Source: a virus (taxonomy: Duplodnaviria; Heunggongvirae; Uroviricota; Caudoviricetes). From it: 37,028 bases of DNA. The notes beneath the pieces are model-generated. The model was not told where the DNA came from. It did not search any database and saw only the letters and a list, made by a program, of their open reading frames with translations. The translations under genes were made by a program, and so were the position numbers. Shown here in pieces: positions 673 to 35,777 of the stretch. Each line of letters opens with the position of its first letter. Position 1 is the stretch's first letter. The stretch lies in IMG/VR virus record IMGVR_UViG_2690316076_000004; one strand, written 5' to 3'.

Positions 673-686
673 TTAATTTCTAATTT

Positions 687-712
687 GGTGGGTGCAATTC
701 CCACCGCTTTTT
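687..712 (+). terminator. putative intrinsic terminator
   Basis: GGTGGG-N7-CCCACC stem followed by GCTTTTT. Confidence 0.5.
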
Positions 713-980
713 AAACTGGAGAATCAAACATGTTAGCTTTTATCTCATTCGTGGGAGGTAGTCTCACAACTATGATTAGTCTTTCTTGTCTTGTCGTTAG
801 TATGGGGTGAGCAATGAAACAATTTCATGATGGCATTTCATCTAAGACATTCAAGAAAGAATATAGCGGATTGTGTATTAACTGGATTGATTTGATTGGT
901 GCGGTTGTGTTTGGTCTGGTAATTAGCATCAATTTTTAACGATATAAATATATCGTAATTCATTCAAAGAGGATTCAATT

Positions 981-1322
981 ATGAAAAAGACTATCTACGC
1001 AATTATTGTTTCTGTGTGTGTTGGTGGCATCGGTGGATTTGTTTGTGGGTATGACTATTCCGATACTCAACATCAAGAGACTATCCGGTCAAATAAGGCC
1101 GAGATTAAGGATCTGAATCAGGAGATTAGCCAGTTAGAAAATGCTCTCTCACTCAAAGACAGTGAATATAGCGAGGTTTATGCAGATAAACAAAAATATT
1201 GGAAAGAGAAAGATAATCTCGTTGTTTACGGGATGAAATTGTGTAAGAGCATGAAGGACGAGCGCAGTTGTTTAATGGAACTTGCCCTTAAAGGTAACGT
1301 GACCATCGACTTCAAAGACTAA
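981..1322 (+). CDS. membrane-anchored coiled-coil protein (i-spanin-like or superinfection-exclusion-like)
   Basis: N-terminal hydrophobic helix (IYAIIVSVCVGGIGGFVCG) then coiled-coil-type region; AAGAGGA RBS. Confidence 0.55.
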   Translation: MKKTIYAIIVSVCVGGIGGFVCGYDYSDTQHQETIRSNKAEIKDLNQEISQLENALSLKDSEYSEVYADKQKYWKEKDNLVVYGMKLCKSMKDERSCLMELALKGNVTIDFKD

Positions 1323-1351
1323 TTAATTCAAATAACAAAGAGGATTCTATT

Positions 1352-1597
1352 ATGAAAAAGATTATCGCTGGTATCGTTCTTGCTCTGGGTTTGGTTGGTG
1401 CTGCAAATGCCGAACAATATGTACAGGGTGATAGTGTCAAGCGTGCTGCCGTTGCACCTTCTTTAAATCAACTGTGTACTGAATTAGCACAGGTTGCCGG
1501 AGTTGGTGACGATGACGACTTTATTACTGCGTGTGTATGGAGTCATATCGAGGATATTAATAAACGTGATGCAAAACTAACTGGAAAGAAATATTAA
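1352..1597 (+). CDS. small secreted protein with signal peptide
   Basis: MKKIIAGIVLALGLVGAANA-E signal-peptide pattern with AxA site; 3 Cys in mature part; no lipobox Cys; same leader/RBS as the 981 gene. Confidence 0.55.
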   Translation: MKKIIAGIVLALGLVGAANAEQYVQGDSVKRAAVAPSLNQLCTELAQVAGVGDDDDFITACVWSHIEDINKRDAKLTGKKY

Positions 1598-1613
1598 TGA
1601 CTTACTAACCAAT

Positions 1614-1653
1614 GCCCCTATCGTTATAATACGCGGTAGGGGCGTTTTTGTTT
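1614..1653 (+). terminator. putative intrinsic terminator
   Basis: GCCCCTA...TAGGGGC stem followed by GTTTTTGTTT. Confidence 0.5.
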
Positions 1654-1662
1654 GGAAATGGT

Positions 1663-3342
1663 ATGAAAACTAAACTGTATTCGTATATTCGCTTCTCGTC
1701 TATGCGTCAGAATGATGGTTCGAGTTATGAACGACAAATCAGGATGGCGAGAGAGGTTGCGGCAAAGTATGACCTTGAACTGGTAAATGATTATCAGGAT
1801 CTGGGTGTATCTGCGTTTAAGGGTGCTAACTCTAAAACAGGGGCGCTATCTCGTTTCCTTGATGCAATTGGTAGATCCGTTCCTGTTGGTAGCTGGCTAT
1901 TCATTGAAAACTTGGACCGCTTATCCCGTGCCGATATTGTCAGTGCGCAGGAGTTATTCCTTTCAATCATCCGTAGGGGGATAACCATTGTTACTGGCAT
2001 GGATAACAAGATCTACTCGCTGGATACTGTTACCGCTAACCCGATGGACCTGATGTTCTCCATCCTTTTATTCATCCGTGGTAATGAGGAAAGCCAGACT
2101 AAGCGCAATCGTACTAACTCAAGCGCACTGATTAAGATTAAAGCTCATCAAGAAAATCCACAAAATCCGGCAGTGGCAATCGAGGAAGTTGGAAAGAATA
2201 TGTGGTGGACTGATACCACTTCCGGTTATGTGTTGCCTCATCCTACATACTTCCCTGTTGTTCAGGAGATTGTGGAATTACGGAAGAATGGACGTTCAAC
2301 CGCCGAAATACTGGATCACCTTAACGAGACATATACACCGCCACCAGCAGTAAGCAACAAGAAGCATTCAAAATGGTCACGGGCAATGGTTGAAAGGTTG
2401 TTCCATACCCGCGCTTTGATTGGTATCAAGGAAGTCTCTGTAGATGGTGTTAACTATGAGTTAAAGGATTATTACCCTCGTGTTATTGATGATGCTACGT
2501 TCTATCACCTTAAGAAAAATATTGGTGCTAGAGCATGGAACTTTGGAGACAAGGAAGAAGTTAAACCGATCCCCCTGCTTAGTGGTATTGGCCTATTGAA
2601 ATGTGATCATTGCGGTTGCGCTATGGTTAAAGTGAAGGGAACGAACAAACGTTCTGACCAGTATCGTTATACATGTGATGCGACCCGTTCACGTAGACTT
2701 GATTGCGAGCATCCAAACTGGAGTTTTCGAGGTGATCAATTAGAGAAAGCTGTATTGCAATTGCTGGCTGATAAAATATGGATTGCTGAGGACAAGGCTA
2801 ATCCGGTTCCGGCGTTGAAAGTACAGGTTGATGAAATATCACGCAAGATTGATAACCTGATTGCCCTTTCTGCTATGACAGGAGCAACGAAGGAGCTAGC
2901 CGATCAGATTACTACCCTCAATAGCGAGCGTGAAACACTCTACAATCAGATCAAGATGGCAGAAGAGGAAATGTATTCTGTGGACTCTCAAGGCTGGGAG
3001 AAGCTCGCAGAATTTGATTTAGAAGATGTTTATAACGAGGAACGACTAAAGGTCCGGTTTAAGATTAAGCAAGCTCTAAAGCGGATCGGGTGTAGCAGGA
3101 TTGACAGAAACAAAAACTTGTTTGTACTGGAATACATCGATGGAAAAACCCAGAGAGTTGTAATAGAAAATTCAAGAGGAACGAGGAAAGGCCGGATCTT
3201 CATTGATTTGAAGACTATCAATGATAGGCAGATTCTGGAGAGCAACGGGCTTGTTCTGCATCCATGTTTAGACATGCTGACAGATAAGAACTGGAAACCA
3301 GAAGAGGAAATACCAGGTCCATTACAGGAATTTGGAATTTAA
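1663..3342 (+). CDS. large serine recombinase (resolvase/integrase family)
   Basis: N-terminal resolvase catalytic pattern (YSYIRFSS...Q), recombinase domain, Cys-rich zinc ribbon (CDHCGC...CDATRSRRLDCEH), C-terminal coiled-coil; track start at 1648 is TTG, ATG at 1663 preferred. Confidence 0.85.
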   Translation: MKTKLYSYIRFSSMRQNDGSSYERQIRMAREVAAKYDLELVNDYQDLGVSAFKGANSKTGALSRFLDAIGRSVPVGSWLFIENLDRLSRADIVSAQELFLSIIRRGITIVTGMDNKIYSLDTVTANPMDLMFSILLFIRGNEESQTKRNRTNSSALIKIKAHQENPQNPAVAIEEVGKNMWWTDTTSGYVLPHPTYFPVVQEIVELRKNGRSTAEILDHLNETYTPPPAVSNKKHSKWSRAMVERLFHTRALIGIKEVSVDGVNYELKDYYPRVIDDATFYHLKKNIGARAWNFGDKEEVKPIPLLSGIGLLKCDHCGCAMVKVKGTNKRSDQYRYTCDATRSRRLDCEHPNWSFRGDQLEKAVLQLLADKIWIAEDKANPVPALKVQVDEISRKIDNLIALSAMTGATKELADQITTLNSERETLYNQIKMAEEEMYSVDSQGWEKLAEFDLEDVYNEERLKVRFKIKQALKRIGCSRIDRNKNLFVLEYIDGKTQRVVIENSRGTRKGRIFIDLKTINDRQILESNGLVLHPCLDMLTDKNWKPEEEIPGPLQEFGI

Positions 3343-3415: not shown

Positions 3416-4414
3416 TTAAAGAGCCTCTAAAGGGCTTAAATCGAGTTCTAAGTCTTCCGGTGTTAAATCAGCTAACGGTGCATTCATCCACTGCGATAAA
3501 TCTCGTTCTATGTCTTCATCACTAATGTAGTTGTTCAGATTGATTGCGTTGGTATCATCAAAATACATTGGCTTAGATGGGTTGATGTGGATGTATTCAT
3601 TGATGAATGATTTAACATCTTTCAGCTTGCTAATCGGTAGCGTTTCTGTGAATCCGCTATTCATTACCTTACGTGGGATTTTCTTGCCCTGAATATTCTT
3701 TTTAATCCCCATTTCTAAATCACCAGCTTTCCATCCAATGTTAAACAAATGTGAGCATTCAAAGGTGATTTTCTCGCTGGTGTGCTTCTGGTGTTCTCTT
3801 ACCCGTTGCATCGGATCTTTGCGAGTGGTAATTCCATATTTGAAAAACTTCTCGCCAACACGAATTAGATAAAAGTGCATAGGGCGCTGTGCAAACTTGT
3901 TTCTGATAACCTGTTTTCTACCATTCTGAATTGATTTAAGTACACCCCTAACCAAAGGGCATGTTAACCCGCCTTGTCTGCGGTTATTGTGTAAATCACC
4001 TTTCTTGTGAATCTTTCCGTGGCACTTACAACGAAGAATTAGTTTAGTGTCAACACCCTGATAAGGTTCAGCCAGACCTAACACATCCCACCCTATCGGC
4101 TTGTAGAACTTGCGAGCGTTTTCTAAGTGTTCTTCTTCGGTAAATCTAAACTTCTTCTTAGGCGGTGATACTCTATCTTTGCCAGTAAACTGACCAGTTA
4201 GAACATGACTAATACATGGCGTTTTAACCTTTCCATTAACTTCTATGCAAACTTTAGTGTTCTGGAATGGTTTCTTTACAGGAAGCACAAAACCACTGTA
4301 TAACCATCCATGCGCTTGACAAACTTTAATGATTCTGGTTTCATATTCGACCGGAGGGGTCGCACGTTTGCTTTTTGCGGTAAATTCGATATCCTTTGCT
4401 AAAGTAGTATTCAT
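3416..4414 (-). CDS. T5orf172 (GIY-YIG-like) domain protein with Cys/His cluster; putative homing-endonuclease-like DNA-binding protein
   Basis: segment HFYLIRVGEKFFKYGITTR...MQRVREH resembles T5orf172/GIY-YIG-like fold; CKCHGKIHKKGDLH...CPL Cys/His cluster; family assignment from memory. Confidence 0.5.
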   Translation of the reverse strand: MNTTLAKDIEFTAKSKRATPPVEYETRIIKVCQAHGWLYSGFVLPVKKPFQNTKVCIEVNGKVKTPCISHVLTGQFTGKDRVSPPKKKFRFTEEEHLENARKFYKPIGWDVLGLAEPYQGVDTKLILRCKCHGKIHKKGDLHNNRRQGGLTCPLVRGVLKSIQNGRKQVIRNKFAQRPMHFYLIRVGEKFFKYGITTRKDPMQRVREHQKHTSEKITFECSHLFNIGWKAGDLEMGIKKNIQGKKIPRKVMNSGFTETLPISKLKDVKSFINEYIHINPSKPMYFDDTNAINLNNYISDEDIERDLSQWMNAPLADLTPEDLELDLSPLEAL

Positions 4415-4460: not shown

Positions 4461-4862
4461 TTAATTATTGTAGTTTTGGAAACCAGTAAGATCGCAAAAT
4501 GAATCAGTGTCATGTGCTGGGGAACGATGTTCTGCTTCGTCAGAGAAAATGTTGGCTACCGGAGATTCTACTTTAACTTCCGGTGCTTCTTCAACATCTG
4601 ACTTAACTTCTTCGACCACTGGTTCAACTGCTGGAGATTCTTCTTTTGTTTCTTCAATGACGATCTCAGGTTCTTTCATTGCTTCAACCAGAGACGGATC
4701 AACTTCGTCGAATACCACTTTATCATCTGCGGTATATTTGTCTATAATGAAAAAATGGTCAGAAATATAGCTAACGTCGCCAGCATATTCTAACAAAAAA
4801 GCGCCCACTAGAGGCGCTTTTGTTTTATCCATTCCACCGTGATTTTTTTGATCTGGAATCAA
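4461..4862 (-). CDS. acidic low-complexity protein (E/V/P-rich); start uncertain
   Basis: track start at 4862 is TTG and the first 12 codons overlap the endolysin 3' end and a terminator hairpin; in-frame ATGs at 4832 and about 4679; poor RBS. Confidence 0.3.
   Translation of the reverse strand: MIPDQKNHGGMDKTKAPLVGAFLLEYAGDVSYISDHFFIIDKYTADDKVVFDEVDPSLVEAMKEPEIVIEETKEESPAVEPVVEEVKSDVEEAPEVKVESPVANIFSDEAEHRSPAHDTDSFCDLTGFQNYNN
4797..4821. terminator. bidirectional intrinsic terminator after endolysin gene
   Basis: AAAA-GCGCC-N7-GGCGC-TTTT with T-tracts on both strands, immediately 3' of the endolysin stop. Confidence 0.6.
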
Positions 4863-5178
4863 TATGCGTAAAGGTTTTATATTTTCCTAAGCCGTATTGA
4901 GTAGGATATTTCCCATCAAGATAAGCATGAACAATATCAGGCGAGACACCCTTGATAACAATGTCAGCCGCGCGGCCTCGAACGTGATAGCTATTGGCTG
5001 CCCCGCCTACATTCTTGTTATGAGTCGGGCAACGGTTGCCACTGTTAATAATCACTGGTTTACCGAAGTGCTCTCGTACATCCTCAAGAATCACCAGTAA
5101 TTCAGCGTCGATTGTATCATAATCACATTTTCCGCATTTACATTTAAATTCCTTGCGAGAAAAATGCTTACTTAACAT
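4825..5178 (-). CDS. endolysin, peptidase M15 family (L-alanyl-D-glutamate peptidase-like)
   Basis: zinc-ligand pattern SYHVRGRAAD ... THID typical of M15 phage peptidases; AAGGGGG RBS. Confidence 0.7.
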   Translation of the reverse strand: MLSKHFSRKEFKCKCGKCDYDTIDAELLVILEDVREHFGKPVIINSGNRCPTHNKNVGGAANSYHVRGRAADIVIKGVSPDIVHAYLDGKYPTQYGLGKYKTFTHIDSRSKKSRWNG

Positions 5179-5187
5179 ATTACCCCC

Positions 5188-5535
5188 TTAGATCATTTCG
5201 AAGATATAACCAATAAAGCGCATACCCTTGATATAATAAGGAGCAGTGCCTACACACACCGCGCGTGCATCGCCCAGACAGTTAAAGCTATAAGGATTAA
5301 CCACATCAACTTCTTGTCCGACACGAAAACGATACTTAGGACGTTTAGCCAATGTAGCGACACAAAACACGGTCCCTTTTTCATGATCGCGGATACATTC
5401 TTTATATTGTTTATGTTTAACTCTCTTCGCCTCAAAATCATGTGTCATAGATTCTGGGCTAATGCCATTAATAAAAATACCGGAAAGCTGATCGACCGGA
5501 TAAGTAGGAAATTCAGTGAAAATATTTTTAGCCAT
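5188..5535 (-). CDS. hypothetical protein
   Basis: 115-aa ORF with GGGGG RBS; no recognisable motif. Confidence 0.55.
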   Translation of the reverse strand: MAKNIFTEFPTYPVDQLSGIFINGISPESMTHDFEAKRVKHKQYKECIRDHEKGTVFCVATLAKRPKYRFRVGQEVDVVNPYSFNCLGDARAVCVGTAPYYIKGMRFIGYIFEMI

Positions 5536-32185: not shown

Positions 32186-32766
32186 AGTGGTATCCTCTAA
32201 AAAGAAAGTGAATCAATCTAATATTATTTATAAAGAGAAAATTCTTGTTATTATGAAAGGTGATTGGATTCAGTCGGCTTCGCCTCCTTCATGATTTTTG
32301 ATTAAATCATCGTCAAAACGAAGAAGTATCTTTAGAATATAAGAATCTTTCTTTTGGAGAAATAATAATCAGGAAGCAATTTAGCAACCGAAGGTTGCAA
32401 TCCCGAAGGGATACCAATACCTTTCATGATCATTAAAGTGATTATTACTATCTTTCTAGAATCAGTTAGTAACTAGTTTAAAATCCCTTTCGAGAAAATC
32501 CTTTCAGAAGTGATTCTCGATGCCACGCAGTGGCGTCGCAGACGTTTGAGAGTGAGCGAAGCGAGCGAGCAAACTAGTTAATTCCTTCTAAGACCATCTA
32601 GTATCATCTAGTTTAAATTAGTTGTTACTAGAAGCAATTGGTTGGCGCTTCGCGCAGTCGGGCTAAAGCCCTCCTAATATCTTTCTGGTTATTTGTTGTT
32701 TTTAGTTTTACACATGAGCGTAGCGAATGTGTTATATAATATCTATGCACGCCGAATCCCTGCTTT

Positions 32767-33010
32767 TGCCCCTCGCTAAGTTAATGTTTTATAAAGAGTT
32801 TTTCTCACCAATTCCTTTCAGGGGCAAATTTCAGGGGCAAAAATTAGATTTTCAGGGGCAATTATTGGCATTTCAGGGGCAAAAATGAGGGGCAAAATCA
32901 CCGTTTCCCAGAATTTCAGGGGCAAAAATATAGGGTTTCAGGGGCAAAAATGGGATGTGGAATCTAGGGGATTTTGGTTCAGGGGCAAAAATTCAGAATT
33001 TCAGGGGCAA
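32767..33010. repeat. iteron-like array of TTCAGGGGCAA
   Basis: exact 11-mers at 32817, 32830, 32851, 32872, 32915, 32937, 32978, 33000, variants at 32886 and ~32963, one inverted core at 32767-32775; spacing mostly 21-22 bp or multiples. Confidence 0.85.
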
Positions 33011-33100
33011 TTCCCATCAAATATTTTGATAGAAAATTCCTGTATATTATTTAATCAAAAAATCACCAAAAAGCGGCGTAAGTTAATGATTTAAAAAGAA

Positions 33101-33126
33101 TTGTCAAAAGGTCTCCGTGCTATAAT
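33101..33126 (+). promoter_or_regulatory. possible extended -10 promoter
   Basis: TTGTCA then TGC-TATAAT (TGnTATAAT) at 33118-33126; -35 spacing suboptimal (14 nt). Confidence 0.3.
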
Positions 33127-33206
33127 AGGTTATAAAGGTTGATAATCCTGCTCTACCATTTTCAAACAAAAATTTTGATAGTCATTTCTCGCTTAGGTCA
33201 AGTGTA

Positions 33207-33235
33207 TTGACAACTGTCAAGGATTATTTTATACT
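33207..33235 (+). promoter_or_regulatory. strong sigma70-type promoter
   Basis: TTGACA (33207-33212), 17-nt spacer, TATACT (33230-33235); overlaps TTGACAA/TGTCAA near-palindrome. Confidence 0.5.
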
Positions 33236-33371
33236 TTTTCTCACTGGTGGGGGTTGAAATTTTCTAAACAGTCCCCATATAGATGATAAGCAAGAATTTC
33301 CACGTTATAAATACATGTGTGAAATGATTGTTCACTTCTGAAAATCTCCTGATTCACTGCTAATTCATACA

Positions 33372-33400
33372 GCACTGGTTAGATATACAGTGCTTTTTCG
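33372..33400 (+). terminator. hairpin + T-tract (leader terminator/attenuator 1)
   Basis: AGCACTG-GTTAGATATA-CAGTGCT followed by TTTT. Confidence 0.4.
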
Positions 33401-33457
33401 GTTGAATATTGTACGAATTGATTAATAATTAATCTTCTCTTTAGCAATTCGTGCTCC

Positions 33458-33484
33458 CACTGATCGGATATACAGTGGTTTTAC
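33458..33484 (+). terminator. hairpin + T-tract (leader terminator/attenuator 2)
   Basis: CCACTG-ATCGGATATA-CAGTGG followed by TTTTA; same CACTG..GATATA..CAGTG architecture as 33372. Confidence 0.4.
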
Positions 33485-33523
33485 AGGGTTTTCTGAAAAT
33501 CATTTTATAAATACAAGTGTTCA

Positions 33524-33544
33524 GAGCGAAATGCTCTTTTTTAA
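33524..33544 (+). terminator. hairpin + T-tract directly upstream of small HTH gene
   Basis: AGAGC-GAAAT-GCTCT followed by TTTTTT, about 20 nt before the RBS of the 33578 gene. Confidence 0.45.
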
Positions 33545-33577
33545 GAAATTATTAATCCACATGTGAGGAATCGACTG

Positions 33578-35492: not shown

Positions 35493-35777
35493 TTATTTAG
35501 TCTGTTTGAAAACAAACGTTAAAAATTCGATTAAGCAATATACCCAGAGTACGGTCATCATCAAATGCATAGCAATAGTTGGATGGAAGTTAAAAAGTGT
35601 CATACTAACTAGGCCAACAATATAAGAAATTCCTTCGACAATTAACGCAAGGCTAGCAAATGCAACAAACGCACCTAAGAATAATTCGCCTCGTTCTTTC
35701 GGTTCGGTTCCGAGTTTATAAGCAGAGATAGCAGCCAGAATAGTAATGATGACAGCATAGGTAATAAAAGTAGCCAT
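35493..35777 (-). CDS. small 3-TMD membrane protein (possible holin)
   Basis: 94 aa, three hydrophobic helices; AAGAGGA RBS; no firm family assignment. Confidence 0.5.
   Translation of the reverse strand: MATFITYAVIITILAAISAYKLGTEPKERGELFLGAFVAFASLALIVEGISYIVGLVSMTLFNFHPTIAMHLMMTVLWVYCLIEFLTFVFKQTK

What the first reader, a model, noticed from the sequence alone, without database searches (positions are those of the whole stretch)
725..1400. Unannotated small hydrophobic ORFs, a palindrome, and duplicated translation-initiation regions
Two short ORFs below the track threshold encode hydrophobic peptides: about 730-810 (MLAFISFVGGSLTTMISLSCLVVSMG) and about 815-940 (41 aa with a C-terminal TM helix). 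A palindrome CGATATA-AA-TATATCG (940-955) lies just upstream of the 981 gene. The 981 and 1352 genes share nearly identical leaders and first codons (CAAAGAGGATTC-A/T-ATTATGAAAAAG), suggesting duplication or a recombination module boundary. Small membrane peptides of this kind can be toxins, holin modulators or superinfection-exclusion factors.
Basis: seen in the sequence. Interest (0 to 1): 0.4.

Follow-up and report, generated by a model that had tools for sequence, protein, structure and literature searches.

The report
Two hidden prophage membrane-peptide genes
Two tiny, almost never annotated genes next to a prophage integrase are real, conserved genes for small membrane peptides, and the repeated ribosome-binding leaders beside them are the seams where accessory genes get swapped in and out; what the peptides do is still unknown.

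Summary

**Small ORFs.** ORF1 (730-810, 26 aa) and ORF2 (814-939, 41 aa) are genuine genes.
- They are kept in every relative found, in E. coli and at least two other enterobacterial host groups, always just upstream of the same large serine integrase.
- ORF2 shows purifying selection (omega 0.07-0.31), an in-frame 3-nt indel and an almost invariant N-terminal motif, M[KR]QFHxGISSKT.
- ORF1 keeps its length, hydrophobicity and a few residues at about 50% nucleotide identity.
- Neither matches any known family.

**Repeated leaders.** They mark the edges of a 368-nt cassette carrying gene 981.
- Most relatives lack this cassette.
- Natural recombinants with crossovers in either repeat exist (L019, L015).
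- The same leader, usually with the same signal peptide, precedes at least five unrelated cargo genes.

**Palindrome.** It sits only where cargo follows ORF2. Its three variants all keep RNA pairing, but that is weak evidence.

**Function.** Not shown. My best guess is envelope-acting accessory proteins, possibly superinfection exclusion. A role in lysis is unlikely. Overall this is a new member of a known kind and moderately interesting.

The parts
686..713 (+). Hairpin plus T-run (terminator-like) between gene B (286-672) and ORF1
   Evidence: - The terminator scan and RNA fold (-11.3 kcal/mol centroid) both find it.
- It is 96% conserved between the window and L004 although ORF1 is only 62% identical.
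- In L007 the stem is kept by compensatory change but the T-run is lost.
- It is absent in L034-L041, where ORF1 overlaps the upstream gene.
730..810 (+). ORF1: 26-aa uncharged hydrophobic peptide, one predicted membrane helix; GGAG Shine-Dalgarno at 718-721
   Evidence: - It is kept as a 25-27-codon ATG/GTG ORF in every lineage examined, at about 50% nucleotide identity.
- S6, F7, S17 and V22 are invariant, and Y20 is present in all but the window's own allele.
- GRAVY is 1.6-2.3 and only this frame is open.
- It is coupled to its neighbours by ATGA or TAATG overlaps in L034-L041.
- Gene callers have called it once among about 15 billion proteins.
814..939 (+). ORF2: 41-aa peptide with a basic N-terminal 17 residues (MKQFHDGISSKTFKKEY) followed by a C-terminal membrane helix
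   Evidence: - NG86 omega is 0.07-0.31.
- There is an in-frame 3-nt indel (41 vs 40 aa).
- The first 15 residues are identical between the window and the other-host loci L034, L035 and L038 across 5 synonymous changes and a Ser codon-family switch.
- Only this frame is open in 7 lineages.
- The family has only 11 clusters at 90% identity and 9 representatives at 50% identity.
939..956 (+). Palindrome / small hairpin (core 940-955) directly after the ORF2 stop codon
   Evidence: - It is unique in the window and folds at -5.7 kcal/mol, z -2.6.
- It is present only in loci where a cargo gene follows ORF2.
- Three variants all keep pairing: C940T gives U-G, and L038 has an A-U to U-A swap plus an added G-U pair.
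- This is not statistically significant: only 3 distinct sequences, and 179/500 shuffles do as well.
956..962 (+). TAATTCA, left copy of the 7-nt direct repeat flanking the 981 cassette
   Evidence: Relatives without gene 981 have a single TAATTCA here.
965..989 (+). Leader 'gamma' plus first codons of gene 981
   Evidence: - Pattern search finds it.
- It stays identical in L042, where the 981-like protein is only 60% identical.
981..1322 (+). Gene 981: 113-aa protein with an N-terminal membrane helix, a coiled coil and a C-terminal Cys pair; optional cargo
   Evidence: - It is present with gene 1352 in 8 of 58 E. coli genomes that carry the locus.
- It is frameshifted in L016.
- All homologues found lie in this same slot.
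- The only family hits are weak: PHROG Rz-like spanin E=0.0024, and PADLOC RTasSLATT and RTasRmuC (E=5e-4 and 7e-4), read as compositional.
1324..1330 (+). TAATTCA, right copy of the direct repeat
   Evidence: Start-to-start spacing is 368 nt, which matches the length missing in strain ES2.
1336..1360 (+). Leader 'beta' plus first codons of gene 1352; looks like a chimera of the common 'alpha' leader and 'gamma'
   Evidence: - Shown.
- In L042 the same gene carries the alpha leader instead.
1352..1597 (+). Gene 1352: 81-aa secreted protein. The signal peptide (1352-1411) is MKKIIAGIVLALGLVGAANA; the mature part is a two-Cys helical hairpin.
   Evidence: - The AlphaFold model has helices at 27-49 and 55-77 with pLDDT 75-91.
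- There is no fold match in the PDB.
- Homologues are found in E. coli only.
- The leader and signal peptide are shared at DNA level with RB49-like phages.
1611..1646 (+). Strong intrinsic terminator closing the unit, upstream of the integrase gene (1663-3342)
   Evidence: - Found by the scan; folds at -23.7 kcal/mol, z -5.1.
- It is conserved, with compensatory stem changes, in L035 and L039.

Best explanation
**Setting.** The interval is the integrase-proximal accessory operon of an uncharacterised temperate phage of Enterobacteriaceae.

**(1) The small ORFs.** ORF1 and ORF2 are real, translated core genes of this prophage family.
- ORF1 is a 26-aa uncharged single-helix membrane peptide.
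- ORF2 is a roughly 40-aa peptide with a short, basic, almost invariant cytoplasmic N-terminus and a C-terminal membrane anchor.
- Both are translationally coupled to their neighbours.

**(2) The cargo slots.** Around the two ORFs lie slots that hold variable cargo, mostly small Sec-exported periplasmic proteins.
- Conserved non-coding seams (hairpin plus SD, palindrome plus TAATTCA plus leader, terminator) and a shared signal peptide act as homology anchors for swapping cargo.
- Gene 981 is one such 368-nt cassette with its own leader.
- The near-identical leaders of 981 and 1352 are the cassette's edges, and recombination between them deletes it.

**(3) The palindrome.** It is most likely a small intercistronic RNA hairpin at the 5' edge of the post-ORF2 slot.

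**(4) Function (inferred, not shown).** The two peptides act in the inner membrane together with the exported cargo to change the cell envelope, most plausibly to exclude other phages.

**Sub-confidences:** (1) about 0.9, (2) about 0.85, (3) about 0.4, (4) about 0.35.
For: **(1) Coding**
- The locus is in 58 of 5426 complete E. coli genomes and 26 IMG/VR contigs.
- It is also in prophages of hosts whose ycdY is only 79% or about 66-71% identical to E. coli, with integrases about 70% identical.
- ORF2: omega 0.07-0.31, an in-frame indel, a conserved N-terminal motif despite synonymous changes, and only this frame open.
- ORF1: length, hydrophobicity and motif kept at about 50% nucleotide identity.
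- ATGA or TAATG overlaps with neighbouring genes and SD-like sequences are present in all lineages.
- Two independent natural stop-codon mutations fuse ORF1 to ORF2 in frame.

**(2) Cassette seams**
- ES2 lacks exactly the 368-nt unit between the TAATTCA repeats.
- L019 carries the 981 leader fused to the 1352 coding sequence, and also shares the window's rare SLSC allele of ORF1.
- L015 carries the other possible product.
- The same leader precedes 81-, 75-, 137/139- and 27+82-aa genes and a 348-aa endonuclease gene.
- Between the window and L004, seams are 96-100% identical, against 62-81% for the coding pieces between them and 97.5% for the integrase.

**(3) Palindrome**

**(4) Function**
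- Most cargo carries a Sec signal peptide.
- One relative carries an OmpW/Ail-like barrel gene in the same region.
- ORF1 and the ORF2 anchor are unusually diverse within E. coli.
Against: - There are no expression or proteomic data.
- No sigma-70-like promoter was detected on this strand. In the integrated state the operon abuts attL, so expression in lysogens is doubtful. That fits a lysogenic-conversion or exclusion role poorly unless there is an undetected promoter or the genes act early after infection.
- ORF1 lies in T-rich sequence, where several frames give hydrophobic peptides. In L027 a frameshifted version is still open and hydrophobic.
- The hairpin evidence rests on three distinct sequences and is not significant. 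A DNA-level role as a protein-binding site is not excluded.
- No homology or fold similarity links any protein here to a known exclusion factor.
Confidence: 0.55

Rival explanations
1. The small ORFs are chance open frames in a T-rich non-coding leader and are not translated.
For: - PGAP leaves the region unannotated in 56 of 58 genomes.
- ORF1 was called once among about 15 billion proteins.
- A frameshifted ORF1 in L027 is still open and hydrophobic.
Against: - ORF2 has omega 0.07-0.31 and an in-frame indel.
- Its N-terminal motif is unchanged between the window and L034/L035/L038 across synonymous changes, and varies at only a few positions family-wide.
- Only the proposed frames stay open in 6-7 diverged lineages.
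- Start codons, SD sequences and overlaps with neighbouring genes are conserved.
Confidence: 0.04
2. ORF1, ORF2 and gene 981 belong to the lysis system, as holin, antiholin or spanin-like components.
For: - The endolysin (4825-5178, minus strand) has no membrane-protein neighbour.
- Gene 981 weakly matches the PHROG Rz-like spanin family at E=0.0024.
- These are small membrane peptides.
Against: - They lie in a different operon, on the other strand, next to the integrase.
- Gene 981 is absent from most relatives.
- Its neighbour 1352 has a signal-peptidase-I type signal and no lipobox, so no outer-membrane spanin partner is present.
- A 94-aa three-TM protein with a charged C-terminus (35493-35777) fits a class I holin better.
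- As far as I recall, peptides of 26 and 41 aa are smaller than any described holin.
Confidence: 0.08
3. ORF1 and/or ORF2 are membrane-depolarising toxins of the type I toxin or abortive-infection kind.
For: Their size and hydrophobicity resemble Ibs, TisB and ShoB-type toxins (recalled, not tested here).
Against: - There is no promoter or long structured 5' UTR of their own.
- No conserved antisense promoter was found: the single minus-strand hit at 1030-1002 is below chance expectation.
- The ORFs are coupled in an operon by overlapping stops and starts.
- There is no Rfam hit and no PADLOC hit.
Confidence: 0.07
4. The peptides act when lysogeny is established, co-expressed with the integrase from the circular genome. 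Possible roles are modulating a membrane protease as lambda CIII does with FtsH, or tethering or regulating the integrase or its directionality factor.
For: - ORF2 is linked to the serine integrase gene in every member found.
- In the prophage the operon abuts attL, so an upstream phage promoter could reach it only after circularisation.
- The invariant cytoplasmic motif suggests a specific cytoplasmic partner.
Against: - There is no similarity to CIII or to any known directionality factor.
- A strong terminator separates the unit from int.
- The exported cargo is not explained by this idea.
Confidence: 0.13
5. The leader similarity is only convergence on a strong ribosome-binding site plus an MKK start, not shared ancestry or a recombination site.
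For: Unrelated gene starts in the window reach 24/37 identity.
Against: - Gene 981 is present or absent exactly at the repeats.
- Natural recombinants L019 and L015 exist.
- The gamma leader is unchanged where the protein has diverged to 60% identity.
Confidence: 0.04
6. The palindrome works at the DNA level, as an operator or part of a moron promoter that drives the cargo gene in lysogens.
For: - It is perfectly symmetric, AT-rich and contains TATAAA.
- It lies 26-41 nt upstream of the cargo start codon.
- It is present only when cargo follows ORF2.
Against: - No acceptable -35/-10 pair was found.
- There is no second copy or half-site elsewhere in the window.
- The common C940T variant breaks DNA symmetry but keeps a U-G pair in RNA.
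Confidence: 0.3

Closest known systems
Phage morons and lysogenic-conversion cassettes next to int/att (for example lambda bor and lom, gtr and oac genes of Shigella and Salmonella phages, HK97 gp15); from general knowledge
   Same: - Optional envelope-directed genes sit in a hot spot beside the integrase.
- They are bounded by terminators and are present or absent among otherwise near-identical prophages.
   Different: - No promoter of their own was detected.
- The cassettes share one leader and often one signal peptide.
- Two tiny core genes are always present alongside the variable ones.
Boundary or linker sequences of mosaic lambdoid phages (modular exchange by recombination at short conserved junctions); from general knowledge
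   Same: - Conserved short non-coding seams flank variable coding modules.
- Natural recombinants have crossovers inside the seams.
   Different: - Here the seam is a translation-initiation region that can extend through a signal peptide.
- It is also shared over about 50 nt with lytic RB49-like phages.
Small bacterial inner-membrane regulatory proteins (AcrZ, MgtS, MgrB, KdpF, PmrR, CydX); from general knowledge
   Same: They have a similar size (about 26-50 aa) and a single membrane helix, and gene callers usually miss them.
   Different: - There is no sequence similarity.
- These peptides are phage-encoded.
- No partner is known.
T4 Imm and Sp (membrane plus periplasmic superinfection-exclusion proteins); from general knowledge
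   Same: Both combine small membrane protein(s) with a small signal-peptide periplasmic protein.
   Different: - No sequence or fold similarity was found.
- Function was not tested.
Type I toxins (Ibs, TisB, ShoB, Hok)
   Same: They are small hydrophobic peptides.
   Different: The ORFs here are coupled in an operon, have no antisense RNA or dedicated promoter, and ORF1 carries no charged residue at all.
Rz/Rz1 spanins (for gene 981 only)
   Same: Gene 981 has an N-terminal membrane helix, a coiled coil and C-terminal cysteines.
   Different: - It is not in a lysis cassette.
- It has no lipoprotein partner.
- It is optional within the family.
- The profile hit is weak (E=0.0024).

Membership tests
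Protein-coding small gene (ORF2) | Purifying selection in the proposed frame; indels in multiples of three; other frames closed | tested here: met
   - Omega is 0.07-0.31.
- Forms of 41 and 40 aa occur.
- All five other frames carry stops in every one of 7 lineages.
Protein-coding small gene (ORF1) | ORF, start codon, SD, length and residue pattern kept beyond nucleotide-level conservation | tested here: met
   - It is 25-27 codons long in 8 variants at about 50% nucleotide identity.
- S6, F7, S17 and V22 are invariant.
- Omega is 0.14-0.6 where it could be computed.
- Caveat: the sequence is T-rich, and L027 has a frameshifted but still open form.
Protein-coding small gene (both) | Direct evidence of translation | not testable with these tools
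   No ribosome profiling or proteomics data are available here.
Moron / lysogenic-conversion cassette | Variable presence in otherwise similar prophages, at a fixed site | tested here: met
   Gene 981, the 81-aa, 75-aa and 137/139-aa genes, the 348-aa endonuclease gene, or no gene at all occupy the same slot.
Moron / lysogenic-conversion cassette | Own promoter and terminator allowing expression from the prophage | tested here: inconclusive
   - Terminators are present at 686-713 and 1611-1646.
- No promoter passed the consensus scan on the + strand.
Holin | Encoded with or near the endolysin, with at least one TM and a charged C-terminal tail; essential for lysis | tested here: not met
   - The ORFs lie 4 kb from the endolysin, on the other strand.
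- ORF1 has no charge.
- ORF2 has its charged part at the N-terminus.
- A better candidate lies at 35493-35777.
- Essentiality is not testable here.
Two-component spanin (gene 981 plus gene 1352) | Inner-membrane component with TM and coiled coil | tested here: met
   This is read from the sequence. The profile hits are to coiled-coil families only.
Two-component spanin (gene 981 plus gene 1352) | Partner outer-membrane lipoprotein with a lipobox Cys; conserved in the phage family | tested here: not met
   - The 1352 signal peptide ends in ANA|E, with no Cys.
- Gene 981 is absent from most relatives.
Type I toxin-antitoxin | Own promoter, antisense or overlapping small RNA, toxicity | tested here: not met
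   - No promoter or conserved antisense element was found.
- The ORFs are coupled within an operon.
- There is no Rfam hit.
- Toxicity is not testable here.
Known anti-phage defence or exclusion protein families | Profile or fold similarity to a described family | tested here: not met
   - PADLOC, Pfam, NCBIfam and PHROGs give nothing for ORF1, ORF2 or 1352 beyond two marginal N-terminal hits for 1352 (E=0.03 and 0.096).
- Foldseek against the PDB gives nothing for 1352.
Structured RNA hairpin (palindrome) | Pairing kept through compensatory or wobble changes | tested here: inconclusive
   - All 21 cells (100%) pair.
- There is 1 double change and 2 wobble changes.
- Only 3 distinct sequences exist, and 179/500 shuffles do as well.

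The most novel reading that the evidence does not exclude
ORF2 would be a membrane-tethered partner of the large serine integrase (or of its unknown directionality factor), tying integration or excision to the cell membrane or to the infection state. ORF1 would be its membrane co-factor. Three observations prompt this:
- ORF2 has a nearly invariant 15-residue cytoplasmic motif.
- It is found only, and always, directly upstream of this integrase across host genera.
- Its operon can be joined to an upstream phage promoter only after the genome circularises.
Probability: 0.06. Interest if true: 0.7.

Novelty: new member of a known kind. Interest (0 to 1): 0.4.

Why it matters
- **Missing annotation.** Two conserved gene families are effectively missing from annotation. 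ORF1 was called once in about 15 billion predicted proteins. ORF2 is annotated in 2 of 58 complete E. coli genomes that carry it.
- **Gene swapping.** The locus shows clearly how a translation-initiation region plus signal peptide can serve as a universal seam for swapping exported accessory genes. The seam is shared even between temperate prophages and lytic T4-like phages.
- **Possible payoff.** If the peptides prove to mediate exclusion or to regulate lysogeny, they would be among the smallest phage effectors known.
- **Limits.** The family is narrow, confined to one prophage lineage of Enterobacteriaceae, and no function has been shown.

Tried and rejected
**Profile and RNA searches**
- Pfam, PHROGs, NCBIfam and PADLOC gave no hit for ORF1 or ORF2 and only marginal N-terminal hits for 1352. 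Gene 981 gave only weak hits: coiled-coil families, PHROG spanin, and PADLOC RTasSLATT/RTasRmuC at E of about 5e-4 to 7e-4, read as compositional.
- Rfam on 500-1800 gave only sub-threshold chance hits.

**Structure**
- The AlphaFold model of the 1352 protein is a helical hairpin, and Foldseek against the PDB found no match with E below 4.
- A single-sequence model of the natural ORF1-ORF2 fusion shows two helices with a break at residues 36-38. This is uninformative.

**Wider searches**
- One genome per GTDB species held no ORF2 relative.
- The ORF1 alignment was too variable to scan the viral contigs.
- Integrase and large terminase against isolated phages gave a best match of 32% and 43% identity, so no characterised relative exists to borrow annotation from.
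- Promoter scans found nothing above chance.

**Literature**
- Two searches found nothing on this prophage family or these peptides. The PdpSau paper (PMC10127798) describes a 278-aa protein in a lysis module and is not a close analogue.

**An error I corrected**
- I first read the RB49 matches as hits to ORF1. They use query coordinates, so they fall on window 1331-1384, the leader and signal peptide of gene 1352.
Full report
**Context**

The window is a 37-kb temperate phage or prophage.
- It carries a large serine recombinase gene at 1663-3342 (Resolvase, Recombinase and Zn_ribbon_recom domains; PHROG integrase, E=1e-63).
- Tail, head and terminase genes lie on the minus strand.
- Near-identical DNA sits in E. 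coli chromosomes as a prophage inserted in ycdX, hicB or next to ybgA/phr. The window's position 1 lies about 40 nt from the left junction.
- No isolated phage is close: the best integrase match is 32% identical and the best large terminase match 43%.
- The stretch in question is one unit on the plus strand. It lies between a hairpin with a T-run (686-713) and a strong terminator (1611-1646, -23.7 kcal/mol, z -5.1), directly upstream of the integrase gene.

**Observation**

- ORF1 lies at 730-810 (26 aa) and ORF2 at 814-939 (41 aa).
- The palindrome at 940-955 is unique in the window.
- The 25-nt leader with first codons occurs at 965-989 and 1336-1360, with 0 expected by chance. This is the most similar pair among 741 pairs of gene starts in the window, although unrelated pairs reach 24/37 identity.

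**The small ORFs are genes**

*Distribution.*
- The region is present in 58 of 5426 complete E. coli genomes at 93-99.6% identity, plus one at 76%, and in 26 IMG/VR contigs.
- A profile search of 5.8 billion proteins found only 11 ORF2 clusters. An exhaustive HMMER search of 1.84 billion representatives found 9.
- Every member whose context I could fetch lies just upstream of the same integrase in the same prophage family.
- Two host groups differ from E. coli: their ycdY is 79% or about 66-71% identical to the E. coli gene, and their integrases are about 70% identical to the window's.

*ORF2.*
- Pairwise omega is 0.07-0.31.
- It has an in-frame 3-nt indel (41 vs 40 aa).
- Its first 15 residues are unchanged between the window and the other-host loci L034, L035 and L038. 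Across that comparison there are 5 synonymous substitutions and a TCT to AGC serine switch.
- Only this frame is free of stops in 7 lineages.
- The family signature is M[KR]QFH[DEQ]GISSKT[FY], followed by a 17-19-residue hydrophobic stretch ending in S-I-N or similar.

*ORF1.*
- Nucleotide identity between lineages is only about 50%.
- Even so, a 25-27-codon ORF with a start codon and SD is always present. Its GRAVY is 1.6-2.3 and it keeps S6, F7, S17, Y20 (C in the window) and V22.

*Coupling and fusions.*
- In the more distant loci the ORFs are joined to their neighbours by ATGA or TAATG overlaps.
- In the E. coli lineage ORF1 and ORF2 share one frame, separated by TGA GCA.
- Two independent natural stop-codon mutations fuse them: TGA to TGG in P0003 and TGA to GGA in WP_096837455.1. 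This is a weak hint that they work together.

*Annotation status and caveats.*
- PGAP annotates ORF2 in 2 of 58 genomes and ORF1 in none.
- ORF1 was called once in about 15 billion proteins.
- The ORF1 region is T-rich, and a frameshifted form in L027 is still open.
- There is no direct evidence of translation.

**The repeated leaders are cassette seams**

- Strain ES2 lacks exactly the 368-nt unit that carries gene 981, and it has a single TAATTCA where the window has two (956-962 and 1324-1330).
- Across the loci there are three leader types:
  - alpha, the commonest (CAAGAGGAAATTCTACTATG);
  - gamma, always found with the 981 family, even where that protein is only 60% identical;
  - beta, the window's 1352 leader, which looks like an alpha/gamma chimera.
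- L019 has the gamma leader fused to the 1352 coding sequence. The crossover lies within ATTATGAAAAAGA. L019 also shares the window's rare SLSC allele of ORF1.
- L015 has the other expected product.
- So the two repeats do recombine in nature and delete gene 981.

*The slot after ORF2 holds many alternatives*:
- the 81-aa gene;
- a 137/139-aa gene;
- a 75-aa gene;
- a 27-aa plus 82-aa pair;
- gene 981 with or without the 81-aa gene;
- a 348-aa homing-endonuclease-like gene;
- nothing at all.

Most of these share the leader and the signal peptide MKKIIAGIVLALGLVGAANA.

*Further points.*
- A second slot lies between ORF1 and ORF2 in distant relatives. It holds a 62-aa protein and a 75-77-aa secreted two-Cys protein.
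- The leader plus about 10 codons is also shared at 85-88% DNA identity with a gene of RB49-like lytic phages, RB49p262.
- Between the window and L004, seams are 96-100% identical and the integrase 97.5%. ORF1 is only 62%, the ORF2 anchor 74% and the mature part of 1352 81%. This is a mosaic of variable modules between conserved junctions.

**The palindrome**

- It is found only when a cargo gene follows ORF2, directly after the ORF2 stop codon.
- As RNA it forms a 7-bp hairpin of -5.7 kcal/mol (z -2.6).
- The three known variants all keep pairing. The common C940T change gives U-G. L038 has an A-U to U-A swap and an extra G-U pair.
- I lean towards an RNA element on this basis, because T at 940 breaks the DNA symmetry.
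- With three distinct sequences the count is not significant (179/500 shuffles).
- A DNA-level role is not excluded. No promoter was detected by consensus.

**Function**

- Nothing here matches a known family convincingly.
- The 1352 protein models as a disulfide-capable helical hairpin with no fold match.
- Lysis is unlikely:
  - the M15 endolysin is at 4825-5178 on the other strand;
  - gene 981 is optional and has no lipoprotein partner;
  - a 94-aa three-TM protein at 35493-35777 is the better holin candidate.
- A type I toxin is unlikely, given the coupling within an operon and the absence of an antisense element.
- My best guess has probability about 0.35. It rests on the exported cargo, an OmpW/Ail-like barrel gene in the same region of one relative, and the high allelic diversity of the membrane parts. 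The guess is that the peptides act in the inner membrane with the periplasmic cargo to alter the envelope, most plausibly against other phages.
- Against this, the operon abuts attL in the prophage and no promoter is visible. It may therefore be expressed only from the circular genome, early after infection or after excision.
- That would fit early exclusion or a role in establishing lysogeny.

**Verdict**

- The two peptide families are new, but they belong to a known kind: small phage membrane proteins in an accessory hot spot with recombination seams.
- Interest is moderate.

Noticed in passing
window 808-816; P0003; P0047 (WP_096837455.1): ORF1 and ORF2 are in the same frame, separated only by TGA GCA. 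Two independent natural stop-codon mutations (TGA to TGG and TGA to GGA) fuse them into 68- and 69-aa two-helix proteins.
   Followed up: partly
window 1602-1646: The terminator before the integrase gene carries a perfect TATAAT (1625-1630) in its loop, with TTACTA 17 nt upstream. This could be an integrase promoter embedded in the terminator. The TATAAT is kept in L034, L035 and L039 but not in L041.
   Followed up: partly
window 1013-1020; L016: Gene 981 contains a (TG)4 run. In L016 one TG is missing and the gene is frameshifted.
   Followed up: no
L001, L003-L007, L043: Prophages with 95-97% identical integrase genes sit in three different host sites: inside ycdX, inside the antitoxin gene hicB, and next to ybgA/phr.
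   Followed up: no
window 32186-33562: This 1.4-kb stretch has few ORFs and contains iteron-like repeats of TTTCAGGGGCAAA at 32816-32886. It may be a replication origin or regulatory region.
   Followed up: partly
window 4461-5535 and 35493-35777: The M15-type endolysin (4825-5178, minus strand) has no membrane-protein or spanin-like neighbour. The only holin-like gene is a 94-aa three-TM protein about 30 kb away, next to a small-terminase-like gene that is itself separated from the large terminase.
   Followed up: partly
window 3416-4414 (-), 11045-11815 (-); L012 578-1624: Homing-endonuclease-like genes lie next to the integrase and inside the tail region. In L012 a paralogue occupies the cargo slot behind the common leader.
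   Followed up: partly
window 1331-1384; L002 (RB49) 1497-1551: The leader and signal-peptide DNA of gene 1352 is 85-88% identical to the start of RB49p262 in 47 T4-like (Krischvirus) records. The mature proteins are unrelated.
   Followed up: partly
window 686-706; L007 2386-2404: The hairpin upstream of ORF1 keeps its stem by compensatory change and keeps its loop (TGCAATT) in L007 but loses the T-run. It may therefore do something other than terminate transcription.
   Followed up: no
L041 4604-5353: One distant relative carries an OmpW/Ail-like outer-membrane barrel gene in the same integrase-proximal region.
   Followed up: no
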